A stretch of DNA of 64,000 bases from positions 12,755 to 76,754 of the forward strand of contig JBGCGH010000043.1 in NCBI GenBank assembly GCA_045110695.1, read 5' to 3'. The notes beneath the pieces were generated by a model. It worked only from the letters and a program-made list of their open reading frames with translations. It ran no database searches and was not told where the DNA came from. The translations under genes and the position numbers were made by a program. This document shows positions 30,964 through 62,540 of this stretch, piece by piece; the first letter of the stretch is position 1; each line of letters starts with the position of its first letter. This stretch comes from Bdellovibrionales bacterium (GTDB lineage: Bacteria; Bdellovibrionota; Bdellovibrionia; Bdellovibrionales; UBA840).

Positions 30964-31560
30964 TTACTTTTGTTCTACCCAGGCGTTATACATGAACTCT
31001 TCTAATTCAACCACACCCTTTTTCTTACTAGAGCTTACAGTGAAGGTCTTCTCAATACCACTAGCTTTTTGAATTTTAAACTTTGCATTCATGGCTTTGT
31101 TCTTACCCAATTTATCTTCTTTTGTCAGAACCAGAATAACATCGGTATTACTCGAGTAAATCCACTCCACCAGCATCGCCTCTTCTTCAGTCCAGTTTCT
31201 GCGGCAATCCATAATCAAAAGTAAGCCCTTTAAATTACCCCTAAGACTAATGTAGGTCTCAATCATACTTTTCCAAGAATCCACTTCTTTGCGACTTCTT
31301 GCTGCGAAACCATAGCCTGGCATATCTACTAGGTAATAGCCTTTACGAACTTCGAAAAAATTAAGGAGTGTTGTCTTTCCGGGGGTTCCTGAGACTTTAG
31401 CTATTCGAGTTCCAAACATTGCGTTGATTAAGGAGCTTTTACCCGCGTTGGAACGACCGATGACTCCTATTTCAGGTAAGGCATCTGGGTTTACTGGGTA
31501 CTGCTCAGGGACTACGGCGCTGGTGATGAATCGAATTTTTCCGTTTCCTGTTAATTTCAT
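30964..31560 (-). CDS. engB: Ribosome biogenesis GTP-binding protein YsxC/EngB
   Basis: 198 aa. GRSNAGKSSLINAM (G1), DMPGYG (G3), TKEDK (G4). Confidence 0.9.
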   Translation of the reverse strand: MKLTGNGKIRFITSAVVPEQYPVNPDALPEIGVIGRSNAGKSSLINAMFGTRIAKVSGTPGKTTLLNFFEVRKGYYLVDMPGYGFAARSRKEVDSWKSMIETYISLRGNLKGLLLIMDCRRNWTEEEAMLVEWIYSSNTDVILVLTKEDKLGKNKAMNAKFKIQKASGIEKTFTVSSSKKKGVVELEEFMYNAWVEQK

Positions 31561-31746
31561 GGTTTGCCATCCGGGTTGTTTTTGGGAGTTTACTACAATT
31601 GTTGGGGGGCGGCAAAAGGGATGGAAAGAAATACAGAGGTTTTTGGGGTTTAGAGGATGAGGGTTTGGGGTGGGGTATTTGGTTGAGGCTTACAGAGGTT
31701 TGCGAGGGTTCTGCCAAAACCGAATGGCTGTGTCCGTGCTCAGACA
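31561..31746. repeat. G/T-rich tract plus the left remnant of a REP-like repeat (left flank of the IS)
   Basis: GGGG/GGG runs (e.g. gagggtttggggtggggtatttgg). 31639-31682 aligns by eye with 62178-62216. 31731-31746 (tgtccgtgctcagaca) is identical to 62260-62275. Confidence 0.6.
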
Positions 31747-31962
31747 TATATGGACCCGCCACTCTGCACAATAGAGAATGTAAAAAATAGAATGCGTACA
31801 TATATTTGACTTCATTGGTCTATTTCCAAGAGCCTAGATGAAATTCGCTGCCTTAACTCCTCATCAGTCCTATGGACTCAATAAATTGGTCCTCTGTCTG
31901 CGATAGTTTTTTTTAAGGCTTTTTCTTCTTTTAACCATCTACATTTGTGCATTTCGAACTGT
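31747..31962 (-). ncRNA. Candidate seekRNA/bridge RNA region of the IS (non-coding 3' end)
   Basis: 216 bp non-coding region 3' of the transposase. Contains GTCCTC+TGTCTG (31889-31900), which matches the two target half-sites on opposite strands. Also contains TCATCAGTCC-TATGGAC (31861-31877), which resembles the IS ends. No fold or covariance model was run. Confidence 0.4.
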
Positions 31963-32982
31963 TTAAATATCTATATACTCACCACCGTTTTTCAAAATAG
32001 CTATCATTCCTCGTACATTTTTATTCGCCAGAGATATAGCTGCACTATTAAAACCCTTTCTATTTACCTGTTCATTTATCCACCTATTTTGTTTCGATAA
32101 ATCACCTTTTCTCATTGCAGAAATAACCTTCGCTCTTGCTCCTTGAACTACCAACCTACGTAAATCCTTGTCCCCTGATTTTGTTAGCCTTGTTAATACT
32201 GTTTTTCCTCCAGTACTTCGTTGACCTGGCACTAGCCCTAGCCATGCTGATCCATGTCGGCCATTTCTAAAATTCCTAGCGTCACCTGCACTGGCTAGAA
32301 ACAATGTCGCCGTTAAAAAACCTACCCCTGGAAAACTCATTAAGCGCTTACAGCTCTCACATTGCTTTGCTATTTCTTTTAACTTATTTGTATAGTTTTT
32401 TTCCTTTTCAATGGTCTCTAAAATCTCGGCGAACTGAACCCTTACCAAATCAAGAAATACATGGCTGTGACCAAATTCATCCTTGCAGAGAAGTTCTCTA
32501 ACCCCTTCCATCAAGCCTGTACTTCCTTTCGGGAAAGTGTATCCATACTCCATAAGTAAGCCCCTTAATTGATTAGATAGACTCACTCTATTTCTAACTA
32601 AAATATCACGTACCCTGTGAAGAGATTGAATATCTTGTTGTGATTCCGTCTTGATCCCTACCACTGTTGCCCTTGGTCTACGACCCGCTTCAATAATTGC
32701 AAAGCCATCGTTCTTGTCGTTTTTCTGTCCCTTTACAAAAGGTTTTACATCCTGAGCTGGTATAAGCTTTACATCGATATTTAGCTTAATAAATTCTCGA
32801 GCCCAATAATGCGCACCTCCACATGCCTCCATATAGATGCAGTCTGGTTCAAGGTTTAGCACCTCCAAGAGGACCCTTTTTCTAGCCACCTTCTTACTCA
32901 TTAAGACCTTGTTATCATCATCATTTACTGCACAAAAATAAAAACTTTCTTTTGCCAAATCGATTCCTAATAGTTTACTCAT
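31963..32982 (-). CDS. IS110-family transposase/recombinase (DEDD N-terminal domain + Transposase_20 C-terminal domain)
   Basis: 339 aa. LLGIDLAKESFYF, IYMEACGGAHYWAREF, KNDKNDGFAIIEAG. C-terminal FPGVGFLTATLFLASAGDARNF...LGLVPGQRSTGGK. Confidence 0.92.
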   Translation of the reverse strand: MSKLLGIDLAKESFYFCAVNDDDNKVLMSKKVARKRVLLEVLNLEPDCIYMEACGGAHYWAREFIKLNIDVKLIPAQDVKPFVKGQKNDKNDGFAIIEAGRRPRATVVGIKTESQQDIQSLHRVRDILVRNRVSLSNQLRGLLMEYGYTFPKGSTGLMEGVRELLCKDEFGHSHVFLDLVRVQFAEILETIEKEKNYTNKLKEIAKQCESCKRLMSFPGVGFLTATLFLASAGDARNFRNGRHGSAWLGLVPGQRSTGGKTVLTRLTKSGDKDLRRLVVQGARAKVISAMRKGDLSKQNRWINEQVNRKGFNSAAISLANKNVRGMIAILKNGGEYIDI

Positions 32983-33078
32983 AATTTTGGACTCTCCCTC
33001 TAATTCAAATAATAATTAAACTATTATTTCGGCACTGCCTAAGCAAGATGTCATAAAAGGGGCGGGTCCATTTCATTA

Positions 33079-33155
33079 GTCCTCCGCGCCCTTGGCTTGT
33101 GCGGAACTGCGCGCGGACAAGTCAGGTTTAATTTGAAAATAGAATTAGTAAGAAG
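33079..33155. repeat. Right part of the REP-like repeat interrupted by the IS
   Basis: gtcctcc...gtgcggaactgcgcgcggacaag...tttaatttgaaaatagaattagtaagaag aligns with 62276-62350 (7-nt and 23-nt identical blocks, diverged elsewhere). Confidence 0.75.
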
Positions 33156-33196
33156 TTTTTTTCGTGGGCACGTGTTGGTAGGAAGGGGGAGGGGGA

Positions 33197-33226
33197 TAAA
33201 AAAAGGCAAACCCGAGGGTTTGCCTT
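33197..33226 (-). terminator. Rho-independent terminator after the porin gene
   Basis: GGCAAACCC and GGGTTTGCC form a stem (33205-33224). On the minus strand it is followed by a T-run (A-run 33198-33204 on plus). Confidence 0.7.
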
Positions 33227-33253
33227 ACAAGGAAATTTAAGTAAAAGCCTTAA

Positions 33254-34234
33254 TTAGAACTTAGCATGCCAGTTCCACATAAGAGTTGCAGGATCGTCTG
33301 CACCGTCAGTAGAAACGTCAGTCATAGTGTAGAAAACACCGTTCTGTAAACCTTTTGCAAGATTCCAAGTGTAACCCAACTTGATTTGGCTTGTAATAGT
33401 AGTAGCCGTTTCAAGATCTTCTGGGTGAGACTGGTAATGGAAATAGATGTCGTTCATCTCAGATAGAGCGTACTGAAGAGCTAGTCTGAAACCAGTTAAA
33501 GTAGCGTCTCTTCCGTCAAGATCACCAGAAATATACTCTAGTTGACCTTTGATCATGTCAGACATGTAGTTAAGAACTAAAGCCATTTGAGTAGAAGCCT
33601 TTTCAGTAGTTCCATCATCAGACTCGCTGTTTGAGTTGTAGAAGAAATCTACGCCAAACATACCCATCTCATAACCTAAAGAAAGTGCGTAACCGATAGC
33701 AGCATCAGCTTGACCTGACTCTAGAGAAGTCTGCTGACCGTTGTGAAGATCGATACCGTACTTGAAAGCACCGCTCATGTTACCATAACGAATACCAGCG
33801 TGCTCTTCACTTAGCTCAACATAAGTTGATCCAAGTTGTTGAAGCATAGCTTCTGAGTGCCAACGTTGGTTTAAGTTCTTGTATACTGTAGCTTTATAAA
33901 GGTTGGAAAAAACACCAAACTTCATGTGGTCGCCACCAGTAAATACGTCTTTACCTTTAATGTATGCTTTACGTAAGAAAGCATCACCTGTTACACCGCT
34001 TGTTTGAGCAGTCTGTAAAGAAAGTTTTGCACTCCAGTTATCATTGAAAGAATGATGACCAGAAATTCGAACTCTTTCTACTCCGAAACCCATTGCTGAT
34101 GTATCGTCAGCAGTCTTAGCACTTGTTTCGTAACTAAAGTTACCCAAGATGCTTCCGTGGATTCCACTGTGTTTTGCCATTGCTGTGCCACCTACTAAAG
34201 ATGCGGCCGCAACTAATAATGTAAGTTTTTTCAT
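33254..34234 (-). CDS. Outer-membrane porin (beta-barrel)
   Basis: 326 aa. Signal peptide MKKLTLLVAAASLVGGTAMA, alternating beta-strand pattern, C-terminal ...WNWHAKF. Codon usage looks visibly biased and it has its own terminator, which suggests high expression. Confidence 0.7.
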   Translation of the reverse strand: MKKLTLLVAAASLVGGTAMAKHSGIHGSILGNFSYETSAKTADDTSAMGFGVERVRISGHHSFNDNWSAKLSLQTAQTSGVTGDAFLRKAYIKGKDVFTGGDHMKFGVFSNLYKATVYKNLNQRWHSEAMLQQLGSTYVELSEEHAGIRYGNMSGAFKYGIDLHNGQQTSLESGQADAAIGYALSLGYEMGMFGVDFFYNSNSESDDGTTEKASTQMALVLNYMSDMIKGQLEYISGDLDGRDATLTGFRLALQYALSEMNDIYFHYQSHPEDLETATTITSQIKLGYTWNLAKGLQNGVFYTMTDVSTDGADDPATLMWNWHAKF

Positions 34235-62055: not shown

Positions 62056-62223
62056 CTAGAAGTTGAAACGTATCAATTCGCCCCGATTAGGACTCTTCTT
62101 GGGTAGTTTATAATTTATCTTTGGAGGAAATAGAAATTATAAGTTTTGTGGGACGCTATAAGTCATATTTATTTTGCGGGTTTTTTGGGCTAAGAGTTTT
62201 TGGGTTTGGGTATTGGCAGTCGA

Positions 62224-62350
62224 CCTCTTCTTTATTCTAATTTCAAACTAAAGCTGGCTTGTCCGTGCTCAGACAGTCCTCCTCGCGGGGCTCGTGCGGA
62301 ACTGCGCGCGGACAAGCCAGCTTTAGTTTGAAATTAGAATAAAGAAGAGG
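62224..62350. repeat. REP-like palindromic element: 42-bp perfect inverted arms around a 43-bp GC-rich core. This is the uninterrupted paralog of the IS target.
   Basis: 62224-62265 (cctcttctttattctaatttcaaactaaagctggcttgtccg) is the exact reverse complement of 62309-62350. The core 62266-62308 contains gctcagaca|gtcctcc. Confidence 0.9.
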
Positions 62351-62540
62351 GCTCTTTTCTTGGAATTTATGATGGGGGGGAAGTGAAAGGATGGTGATGG
62401 GGTGGTGGTGTTTTGGGACTGGTGGGGGGGGGGTGTGTAGAAAGTATAGGGTTGGTTGCTTGTTTATTGGGGGATGGGAGTGAGAAGGGGGTGGTTTTGA
62501 TTGGGGTGGTGGCATAGGGATTGCTGTATTAAGGGGTAGA
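62351..62540 (+). repeat. G/T-rich, C-depleted low-complexity tract with G7 and G10 homopolymers
   Basis: By my count only 7 C in 190 nt. G7 at 62374-62380, G10 at 62424-62433. Run pattern GGGGG-at-GGG-agtgagaa-GGGGG-tggttttgatt-GGGG at 62469-62506. Confidence 0.85.

What the first reader, a model, noticed from the sequence alone, without database searches (positions are those of the whole stretch)
31861..31902. Candidate seekRNA/bridge-RNA guide segments matching both target half-sites and both IS ends
The target is CAGACA|GTCCTC. Inside the IS 3' non-coding region, 31889-31900 reads GTCCTC-TGTCTG. That is the right half-site as written, followed directly by the reverse complement of the left half-site. 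An RNA made in transposase sense (CAGACAGAGGAC) could therefore pair with opposite strands of the two halves, the geometry described for IS110/IS1111 bridge/seek RNAs. About 20 nt away, 31861-31877 (TCATCAGTCC-TATGGAC) juxtaposes a 9/10 match to the right junction (tcattagtcc, 33073-33082) with an exact copy of the left IS end (tatggac, 31749-31755), as expected for a donor-binding loop. A specified 12-mer in 216 nt is unlikely by chance, but I allowed some freedom in the pattern.
Basis: partly seen in the sequence, partly recalled or inferred. Interest (0 to 1): 0.7.

Follow-up and report, generated by a model that had tools for sequence, protein, structure and literature searches.

The report
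IS1111-type insertion sequence guide RNA

Summary
Window 31747-33078 (minus strand) is an intact 1,332-bp IS1111-group insertion sequence. It has a 339-aa DEDD transposase, 11-bp subterminal inverted repeats and a 216-nt 3' non-coding region.

A covariance model built from 26 relatives gives one hit in the window, 31785-31928(-), 80.4 bits. The same model also hits IS4321 and IS5708. The consensus fold has two internal loops, with 95% of cells paired against 71% in shuffles.

I compared RNA columns with flanks and IS ends in 56 non-redundant elements. That fixes four guides:
- Target loop, 5' side, complementary to the right flank: CAGACAG in the window, 31894-31900.
- Target loop, 3' side, equal to the left flank plus core: AGGACUG, 31865-31871.
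- Donor loop, 5' side, complementary to the left IS end: AUUUCAU, 31838-31844.
- Donor loop, 3' side, equal to the right IS end plus core: AUAUAUG, 31799-31805.

An unoccupied copy of the target lies at 62267-62284.

Verdict: a new member of a known kind, of modest interest.

The parts
31747..33078 (-). Complete IS1111-group insertion sequence, 1,332 bp. The boundary is ambiguous by 1 nt because a T is shared between the left IS end and the right flank.
   Evidence: Subterminal inverted repeats. Flanks rejoin to match the unoccupied paralogous site at 62267-62284. The same end architecture is seen in 69 loci.
31963..32982 (-). Transposase, 339 aa, with DEDD/RuvC-like N-terminal domain and Transposase_20 C-terminal domain. 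It contains GLVPGQRSTG, which fits the GL-P----(S/T)G motif.
   Evidence: Pfam PF01548 at 5.6e-15 and PF02371 at 4.2e-20. ORF and translation. 35-39% identity to IS4321, IS5075, IS5708 and ISShdy1 transposases.
33061..33078 (-). Left IS end in transposase sense. It is a 7-nt terminal extension TAATGAA (33072-33078) followed by the subterminal inverted repeat ATGGACCCGCC (33061-33071).
   Evidence: The family pattern is YRATGrr followed by ATGG(A/T)C.
31747..31760 (-). Right IS end in transposase sense. It is the subterminal inverted repeat GGCGGGTCCAT (31750-31760) followed by the 3-nt extension ATA (31747-31749).
31785..31928 (-). Bridge/seek RNA scaffold of 144 nt, with two internal loops.
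   Evidence: It is the only hit of covariance model R1 in the window: 80.4 bits, E 1e-21. Consensus structure and covariation.
31894..31902 (-). Target loop, 5' side: right-flank guide CGCAGACAG. CAGACAG pairs with the target top strand C|TGTCTG. Eight of the 10 scored positions are complementary.
   Evidence: Alignment columns 30-38 are complementary to right-flank bases +8 to +1 and left-flank base -1 across 56 elements.
31874..31892 (-). Hairpin P3 between the two target guides: GGAC-CAAUUUAUUGA-GUCC.
   Evidence: P3 pairs covary in the family: 3 of 4 pairs show changes on both sides. The closest relative has GGC...GCC at this position.
31865..31871 (-). Target loop, 3' side: left-flank guide AGGAC plus core UG. 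It equals the target top strand AGGAC|TG and would pair with the bottom strand.
   Evidence: Columns 69-74 equal left-flank bases -5 to -1 in 80-93% of 56 elements, z 9-11. Column 75 equals the core base. In the window, 7 of 8 scored positions match.
31851..31918 (-). Helices closing the target loop. P1 is CCUUAAA (31912-31918) with GUUAAGG (31851-31857) in the model alignment; the flanking G31919 and C31850 can extend it by one pair. P2 is (A)CU (31905-31907) with AGG (31859-31861).
   Evidence: All five pairs of the main P1 helix show changes on both sides.
31835..31846 (-). Donor loop, 5' side: GAAUUUCAUCUA. AUUUCAU (31838-31844) is complementary to left-end bases 3-9, ATGAAAT.
   Evidence: The positions just 5' of the conserved CAU pair with left-end bases 6 and 7. 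The Watson-Crick rate is 91% and 61%, and 95% at both once wobble pairs count, z 7.1 and 5.3. Between the window and its closest relative, an A-to-G change in the end matches a U-to-C change in the RNA.
31796..31807 (-). Donor loop, 3' side: AAAUAUAUGUAC. AUAUA+UG (31799-31805) equals the last 5 nt of the right IS end plus the core.
   Evidence: Columns 190-194 equal the last 5 right-end bases in 56 of 56 elements, including the two variable positions (z 9-10). Column 195 equals the first left-end base in 54 of 56.
31794..31848 (-). Helices of the donor loop. P4 is GC (31847-31848) with GC (31794-31795). P5 is GGCU (31831-31834) with AGUC (31808-31811). An inner hairpin lies at 31812-31830.
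   Evidence: P5 is 100% paired, with two pairs changed on both sides.
33079..33084 (-). Left target flank in transposase sense: GAGGAC.
31741..31746 (-). Right target flank in transposase sense: TGTCTG. Its first T is the shared core base.
62267..62284 (+). Unoccupied paralogous target, GCTCAGACA|GTCCTCCTC, inside a long palindromic extragenic repeat.

Best explanation
This is an intact, single-copy IS1111-group insertion sequence of the IS110 family, in a Bdellovibrionales metagenome-assembled genome. Its 3' non-coding region encodes a bridge/seek RNA in transposase sense.

The RNA folds into two internal loops.

Loop 1 binds the target.
- Its 5' side (CAGACAG) pairs with the top strand of the right flank and reaches one base past the insertion point.
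- A hairpin follows.
- Its 3' side (AGGAC+UG) has the sequence of the left flank plus a 2-nt core, so it pairs with the bottom strand.
- The two guides overlap on the target around the crossover.

Loop 2 binds the donor with the same geometry.
- Its 5' side (AUUUCAU) pairs with the top strand of the left IS end.
- Its 3' side (AUAUA+UG) has the sequence of the last five bases of the right IS end plus the core.
- Together they read the right-end/left-end junction of the excised circle.

Joining the ends would also build a promoter, TTGTGC-17 nt-TATAAT. That promoter would drive the transposase gene and the RNA.

Shown here: the anatomy, the structure covariation and the guide-to-DNA covariation across relatives. 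Inferred from work on ISEc11, ISPa11, ISKpn4 and IS621: that the RNA is made, binds the transposase and directs recombination.
For: Protein:
- Both Pfam domains of IS110-family transposases are present.
- It is 35-39% identical to the IS4321, IS5075 and IS5708 transposases.

Ends:
- There is an 11/11 subterminal inverted repeat with 7-nt and 3-nt extensions.
- The same layout is seen in 69 related loci.

Insertion site:
- The joined flanks match an unoccupied paralogue at 62267-62284 in 17 of 18 positions.
- Similarity of 88% runs over 89 nt across the junction.

RNA structure:
- RNAalifold on a MAFFT alignment of 26 relatives gives two internal loops.
- 95.4% of cells are paired, against 71.0% in shuffles and 29-40% when partners are slid.
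- 124 cells show changes on both sides, against 31.7 expected.

Model:
- R1 has one window hit, 31785-31928(-), 80.4 bits.
- It has 81 hits in related loci.
- It also hits IS4321 (62.5 bits), IS5708 (52.7 bits) and a Klebsiella plasmid IS (98 bits).
- The flanks of the Klebsiella plasmid IS and of IS4321 fit the guide columns.

Guides, scored in 56 non-redundant elements:
- Right-flank guide complementarity averages 5.84 of 10, against 2.93 +/- 0.20 with permuted flanks.
- Left-flank guide identity averages 6.18 of 8, against 2.79 +/- 0.17.
- Donor loop 3' side equals the last 5 right-end bases in 56 of 56.
- Donor loop 5' side pairs with left-end bases 6 and 7 in 95% once G:U pairs are allowed. 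That tolerance argues for pairing by an RNA of this strand.

Other:
- The window's own scores are 8 of 10 and 7 of 8.
- The junction promoter is present.
- The guide order, top-strand match 5' of bottom-strand match, is as reported for IS1111 seekRNAs (PMC11187229).
Against: - There is no expression or binding data for this element.
- It is a singleton. One contig in the protein database carries it and the window holds one copy, so mobility is not demonstrated.
- Rfam 15 gives no hit.
- The single-sequence minimum-free-energy fold is not better than shuffles (z -0.67) and pairs the guide regions with each other.
- The window's P2 helix is weak: ACU instead of the family's CCU.
- The right-flank guide has only 7 contiguous pairs.
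- For ISEc11, an 82-nt RNA reported to carry the two target matches was sufficient in an assay (PMC11187229). I infer that it lacks the second loop, so the role of that loop in IS1111-type elements is not established experimentally.
- 20 of the 56 relatives score 3 or less of 10 on the right-flank guide. I did not resolve whether this reflects alignment register or wrongly called ends.
Confidence: 0.88

Rival explanations
1. The adjacent 12-mer CAGACAGAGGAC carries both target guides, and 31861-31877 is the donor-binding loop.
For: - The strings match the flanks and ends exactly or 9/10.
- The 12-mer is unique in the window.
Against: - The columns homologous to GAGGAC match the left flank in only 12-24 of 56 relatives. 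The columns 23-30 nt downstream match in 45-52 of 56.
- The closest relative has the same left flank GAGGAC.
- GGAC pairs with GUCC in a helix that covaries.
- The columns under GUCCAUA do not track the right IS end. Positions -8 and -5 match in 13 of 56 and 3 of 56.
- The real donor covariation lies elsewhere.
Confidence: 0.04
2. Only the first loop acts as a guide, as a short seekRNA. The second loop's matches to the IS ends would then be DNA-level features, such as internal copies of the end sequence bound by the transposase or promoter elements, and not RNA guides.
For: - An 82-nt RNA was enough for ISEc11 movement. The authors state that how the ends are recognised is unknown (PMC11187229).
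- The 3' side of loop 2 is a direct repeat of the right end plus core. Identity at DNA level would look the same.
Against: - The 5' side of loop 2 follows left-end bases 6-7 with a G:U-tolerant pattern. The Watson-Crick rate of 61% at base 7 rises to 95% with wobble, which fits RNA pairing on this strand.
- Both sides sit in an internal loop closed by helices, one of which (P5) covaries.
- The geometry mirrors loop 1.
- Durrant et al. predicted donor-binding nucleotides in IS1111 bridge RNAs (PMC11208160).
Confidence: 0.08
3. The matches are chance, and the 3' non-coding region has no RNA function.
For: - The single-sequence fold is not better than shuffles.
- There is no Rfam hit.
Against: - The structure covaries across relatives.
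- The guides covary with flanks and ends across 56 elements.
- The model also hits IS4321 and IS5708.
Confidence: 0.01

Closest known systems
IS1111-family seekRNAs of ISEc11, ISPa11, ISKpn4 and ISPst6 (Siddiquee et al. 2024, PMC11187229)
   Same: - The transposase is 339 aa, the same length as TnpEc11.
- It has subterminal inverted repeats and a long non-coding region downstream of the transposase gene.
- The RNA carries a top-strand match 5' of a bottom-strand match, and the two overlap on the target.
- The target lies in a palindromic extragenic repeat.
- A promoter forms at the circle junction.
   Different: - The target sequence differs: GAGGAC|TGTCTG.
- The host is different, a Bdellovibrionales MAG.
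- The transposase is distant from the characterised members whose transposases I compared, at 35-39% identity to the IS4321 and IS5075 group (ISEc11, ISPa11 and ISKpn4 themselves were not compared).
- No experimental data exist for this element.
- That paper describes only the target matches. Here a second, end-matching loop is also resolved by covariation.
IS4321 / IS5075, classical IS1111-family members that target Tn21-family inverted repeats
   Same: - The covariance model built on the window's relatives hits the IS4321 3' non-coding region at 62.5 bits.
- Its guide columns read the IS4321 flanks and ends. UAAAACGGAA matches the reverse complement of the right flank, GAAAACGGAA. AUAGA+UU equals the right end plus core.
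- The end layout is the same: TAATGAG followed by ATGGTC, with a 3-nt right extension.
   Different: - The transposases are about 35.5% identical.
- The target differs.
IS621 bridge RNA (Durrant et al. 2024, PMC11208160; Hiraizumi et al. 2024, PMC11208158)
   Same: - One RNA carries a target-binding and a donor-binding internal loop.
- Each loop has one guide for each DNA strand around a short core.
- It works with a DEDD recombinase.
   Different: - The IS621 RNA is encoded in the left end, upstream of the gene. Here it lies downstream.
- The order of the two guides within each loop is reversed.
- The subterminal repeats are long here (11 bp) and 2-3 bp in IS110-type elements.
- The core here is Y(G/A), not CT.
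- Handshake guides as defined for IS621 were not demonstrated here.

Membership tests
IS110 family, IS1111 group (insertion sequence) | DEDD (RuvC-like) transposase with PF01548 plus PF02371 domains, about 330-350 aa | tested here: met
   339 aa. PF01548 scores 5.6e-15 and PF02371 scores 4.2e-20.
IS110 family, IS1111 group (insertion sequence) | C-terminal GL-P----S(t)G motif (PMC11187229) | tested here: met
   The translation contains GLVPGQRSTG. G249, L250, P252 and G258 are invariant in 26 homologues.
IS110 family, IS1111 group (insertion sequence) | Subterminal inverted repeats of 7-17 bp with short terminal extensions | tested here: met
   An 11/11 repeat ATGGACCCGCC lies at 31750-31760 and 33061-33071. 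The extensions are 7 nt and 3 nt, as in 69 related loci.
IS110 family, IS1111 group (insertion sequence) | The longer non-coding region lies downstream of the transposase gene | tested here: met
   The non-coding region is 216 nt downstream (31747-31962) and 96 nt upstream (32983-33078).
IS110 family, IS1111 group (insertion sequence) | Sequence-specific, orientation-specific insertion without a target duplication | tested here: met
   The joined flanks match the unoccupied paralogue at 62267-62284 with no duplicated bases. The closest relative sits in the homologous site and orientation.
IS110 family, IS1111 group (insertion sequence) | A promoter is assembled at the circle junction (Pjunc) | tested here: met
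   Joining the right and left ends in silico gives TTGTGC-17 nt-TATAAT. The -10 hexamer is TATAAT in 20 of 56 relatives, and most others read TA followed by CAAT, CGAT or TGAT. Promoter activity was not tested.
seekRNA / bridge RNA of IS1111 type | Two guide segments in the non-coding-region RNA match opposite strands of the target, with the top-strand match 5' of the bottom-strand match | tested here: met
   In the window they are CAGACAG (31894-31900) and AGGACUG (31865-31871). Family covariation supports both, with per-column z of 4-7 for the first and 9-11 for the second.
seekRNA / bridge RNA of IS1111 type | The guides lie in internal loops of a conserved, covarying secondary structure | tested here: met
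   20 pairs in 6 helices, 95.4% of cells paired, and 14 pairs with changes on both sides.
seekRNA / bridge RNA of IS1111 type | A second (donor) loop matches the IS ends | tested here: met
   The 3' side equals the last 5 right-end bases in 56 of 56 elements. The 5' side pairs with left-end bases 6 and 7 in 95% once wobble is allowed. In the window the guides are at 31799-31805 and 31838-31844.
seekRNA / bridge RNA of IS1111 type | The RNA scaffold is homologous to that of recognised IS1111 members | tested here: met
   Model R1 hits IS4321 at 62.5 bits, IS5708 at 52.7 bits and ISShdy1 at 19.6 bits. It was not tested against ISEc11, ISPa11 or ISKpn4 themselves.
seekRNA / bridge RNA of IS1111 type | The RNA is transcribed, co-purifies with the transposase and is required for transposition | not testable with these tools
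   This needs RNA-seq, pull-down and transposition assays.
Rfam families | A match to a curated covariance model | tested here: not met
   Across 31000-34000 at E up to 10, only four chance-level matches to unrelated families appeared. This shows no matching Rfam 15 model, not that the RNA is absent.

The most novel reading that the evidence does not exclude
In this branch of IS1111 elements, the 3' strand of each loop may read past the core into the partner DNA.
- The target loop continues with AU, matching left-end bases 3-4.
- The donor loop continues with a base that tends to match right-flank base 3.

This would be a bottom-strand 'handshake' that pre-reads the two recombinant junctions. 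It would differ in position from the IS621 handshake guides.

The evidence is thin.
- Column 77 against left-end base 3: 80% against 77% expected. The signal is driven by a few elements such as L025, which has C in both (p about 0.02).
- Column 197 against right-flank base 3: 45% against 27% expected (p = 0.0025).
Probability: 0.15. Interest if true: 0.5.

Novelty: new member of a known kind. Interest (0 to 1): 0.3.

Why it matters
- **Annotation.** It adds one more natural IS1111-type RNA-guided recombinase, with its guide code fully read out: an 11-bp target AGGAC-TG-TCTG in a palindromic repeat.
- **Host.** It comes from a lineage, Bdellovibrionales, that is distant from the characterised examples.
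- **Family rule.** The by-product is a usable rule for this branch of IS1111 elements. It says where the four guides sit relative to conserved helices. It also shows that the donor loop's 3' side copies the right-end extension plus core in 56 of 56 cases.
- **Use.** This may help predict targets and reprogram such elements. It agrees with the published predictions rather than overturning them.

Tried and rejected
- **Rfam scan.** Scanning 31000-34000 at E up to 10 gave only chance matches.
- **Single-sequence fold.** The fold of the 216-nt non-coding region had z -0.67 and paired the guides with each other, so it was uninformative.
- **Genome collection scan.** A GTDB-representative scan with the transposase found only two relatives at about 42% identity and no second copy of this IS.
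- **First repeat finder.** My first exact-match finder for subterminal repeats missed many loci and the window itself. I replaced it with an anchored ATGG[AT]C search.
- **Finding guides by exact substrings.** This was noisy for short matches. I replaced it with a column-wise analysis on the model alignment.
- **The 2-3 nt after the conserved CAU on the donor loop's 5' side.** I tested whether they pair with left-end bases 1-2. There was no signal, z about 0.
Neither does.
- **Other copies in the window.** I looked for further copies of the IS or its RNA and found none.

Full report
**1. What is at the site**

The flagged bases lie in the 216-nt stretch between a minus-strand ORF (31963-32982, 339 aa) and an inverted-repeat copy.
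- The ORF carries both Pfam domains of IS110-family transposases: PF01548 at 5.6e-15 and PF02371 at 4.2e-20.
- The 11-mer ATGGACCCGCC occurs twice in the window, in inverted orientation, at 31750-31760 and 33061-33071.
- Read in transposase sense, the element is: left flank GAGGAC | TAATGAA-ATGGACCCGCC ... transposase ... 216-nt non-coding region ... GGCGGGTCCAT-ATA | right flank TGTCTG.
- The identical protein is on record once, from a Bdellovibrionales metagenome-assembled genome.

**2. The observation**

GTCCTCTGTCTG is unique in the window.

The target and the ends are independently confirmed.
- A search for the rejoined flanks finds GCTCAGACAGTCCTCCTC at 62267-62284, a 17 of 18 match.
- An alignment of the rejoined flanks to that region runs at 88% identity over 89 nt straight through the insertion point.
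- The site lies inside a long palindromic extragenic repeat.
- The closest relative has a transposase 60% identical (P0002). It sits in the homologous position of a homologous repeat, GAGGAC|...|TGTTTG.

**3. Relatives and end architecture**

- The genome collection held only two relatives, at about 42% identity.
- A metagenome scan with a 26-protein alignment gave 80 loci at 38-45% identity.
- In 69 loci I could place subterminal repeats beginning ATGG(A/T)C.
- The left extension is always 7 nt (YRATGrr). The right extension is always 3 nt (ATA, GTA, ACA, CTA or AGA).
- The first base of the left end usually equals the first base of the right flank, which marks a shared core base.

**4. RNA structure**

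- A MAFFT alignment of the non-coding regions of 26 elements is well conserved.
- RNAalifold gives two internal loops closed by helices P1/P2 and P4/P5.
- On that alignment, which was not fitted to any structure, 95.4% of cells are paired. The figure is 71.0% in shuffles and 29-40% when partners are slid by 1-3 columns.
- 124 cells change on both sides, against 31.7 expected.
- A covariance model from this alignment (R1) has a single hit in the window, 31785-31928 on the minus strand, 80.4 bits.
- It has 81 hits in the related loci.
- It also hits the 3' non-coding regions of IS4321 (62.5 bits), IS5708 (52.7 bits), ISShdy1 (19.6 bits) and an unnamed Klebsiella plasmid IS (98 bits).
- Rfam 15 has no matching family.
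- The single-sequence fold is uninformative.

**5. Where the guides are**

For 56 non-redundant elements I compared every variable alignment column with every position of the flanks and IS ends, using row permutation as the control.

Four blocks stand out.
- (a) Columns 30-38 are complementary to right-flank bases +8 to +1 and to left-flank base -1.
- (b) Columns 69-74 are identical to left-flank bases -5 to -1 in 80-93% of elements (z 9-11). Column 75 equals the core base.
- (c) Columns 190-194 are identical to the last five bases of the right IS end in 56 of 56 elements. This includes the two variable positions. Column 195 equals the first left-end base in 54 of 56.
- (d) The bases immediately 5' of a conserved CAU pair with left-end bases 6 and 7. 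The Watson-Crick rates are 91% and 61%, and both reach 95% once G:U pairs are allowed (z 7.1 and 5.3).

Summed over elements:
- Right-flank guide complementarity is 5.84 of 10, against 2.93 +/- 0.20 with permuted flanks.
- Left-flank guide identity is 6.18 of 8, against 2.79 +/- 0.17.

The same columns read the real flanks and ends of IS4321 in its Tn21-type inverted-repeat target, and of the Klebsiella plasmid element.

**6. The window's RNA** (coordinates)

- P1 is 31912-31918 with 31851-31857.
- The right-flank guide is CGCAGACAG at 31894-31902. CAGACAG is contiguous, and 8 of the 10 scored positions pair.
- A linker A sits at 31893.
- Hairpin P3 is GGAC-CAAUUUAUUGA-GUCC at 31874-31892.
- A linker AU sits at 31872-31873.
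- The left-flank guide AGGAC plus core UG is at 31865-31871, with 7 of 8 positions matching.
- AUG is at 31862-31864.
- The P2 3' strand AGG is at 31859-31861.
- P4 is 31847-31848 with 31794-31795.
- The donor loop 5' side is GAAUUUCAUCUA at 31835-31846. AUUUCAU is complementary to left-end bases 3-9.
- P5 is 31831-31834 with 31808-31811.
- The donor loop 3' side is AAAUAUAUGUAC at 31796-31807. AUAUA+UG equals the right end plus core.

**7.

- CAGACA is the core of the right-flank guide, so that call is correct.
- GAGGAC is not a guide. It is the last guide base, a linker and the P3 5' arm.
- Its columns match the left flank in only 12-24 of 56 relatives.
- The closest relative has the same left flank GAGGAC. 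It reads GAGGCU there while keeping AGGACUG at the family site.
- The identity in the window is therefore best read as coincidence, helped by the family's G-rich consensus for that arm.
- TCATCAGTCC, whose reverse complement is GGACUGAUGA, is the true left-flank guide plus core plus the conserved AUG and the first base of P2. This explains its 9/10 match to the flank/left-end junction.
- TATGGAC, whose reverse complement is GUCCAUA, is the P3 3' arm plus a linker plus the first base of the left-flank guide. Its columns do not follow the right end.

**8. Mechanism**

By analogy with ISEc11, ISPa11 and ISKpn4 (PMC11187229) and IS621 (PMC11208160; PMC11208158), the expected steps are as follows.
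- The element excises as a circle.
- Joining the ends creates TTGTGC-17 nt-TATAAT. A junction promoter of this kind is known for ISEc11.
- The transposase gene and the downstream RNA are transcribed together.
- Loop 2 holds the right-end/left-end junction and loop 1 holds the target.
- The DEDD recombinase exchanges strands at the shared core.

The guide order, with the top-strand match first, is the one reported for IS1111 seekRNAs. These steps are inferred and were not shown here. For ISEc11, an 82-nt RNA reported to carry the two target matches sufficed in an assay. I infer that it lacks the second loop, so the donor loop's role in IS1111-type elements is supported only by covariation.

**9. 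Verdict**

This is an ordinary though previously uncharacterised member of a known kind. The second target guide and the donor loop were misplaced.

No IS1111 structural study turned up in the paper library. The family-level guide map is a modestly useful by-product, but it agrees with published predictions.

Noticed in passing
window 62215-62355, and the IS flanks 31690-31746 plus 33079-33140: There is a long palindromic extragenic repeat: ...aaactaaagctggcttgtccg...cggacaagccagctttagttt.... The window holds two copies, one occupied by the IS and one empty. Similar G-rich stretches lie beside both copies, at 31640-31690 and 62180-62215. The IS target sits near the centre of the palindrome.
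   Followed up: partly
L003 216-1600 and L004 15-1400: In the closest relative's contigs, a second and different IS110-family element ends about 35 nt upstream of the P0002 element's left end, inside the same repeat. It has a 373-aa transposase and subterminal repeat TATGGACGACCGC. Two different IS therefore target neighbouring positions of one repeat.
   Followed up: no
L005 1330-1530: Downstream of the relative's IS lie tandem repeats of roughly 115-120 nt. One carries an uninterrupted target-like site, ...ggcgaaaaagac|tgtttaagcatggag. This supports the insertion point in that element too.
   Followed up: partly
alignment A3 columns 76 and 196, in 56 elements: The second core base in both RNA loops is G in most elements. 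It matches right-flank base 2 in 47-49 of 56, but matches left-end base 2, often A, in only 22-24 of 56. The donor and target cores therefore differ systematically at this position, which bears on where strand exchange occurs.
   Followed up: no
56 related elements: 20 of 56 elements score 3 or less of 10 on the right-flank guide, while most score 7-9. Possible causes are alignment register in variable hairpins, wrongly called right ends, or insertions at non-cognate sites.
   Followed up: no
window 31860-31905, single-sequence fold: In this element the left-flank guide AGGAC could also pair with the P3 3' arm GUCC, giving GUCC-AUA-GGAC. This alternative small hairpin is not possible in the closest relative.
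   Followed up: no
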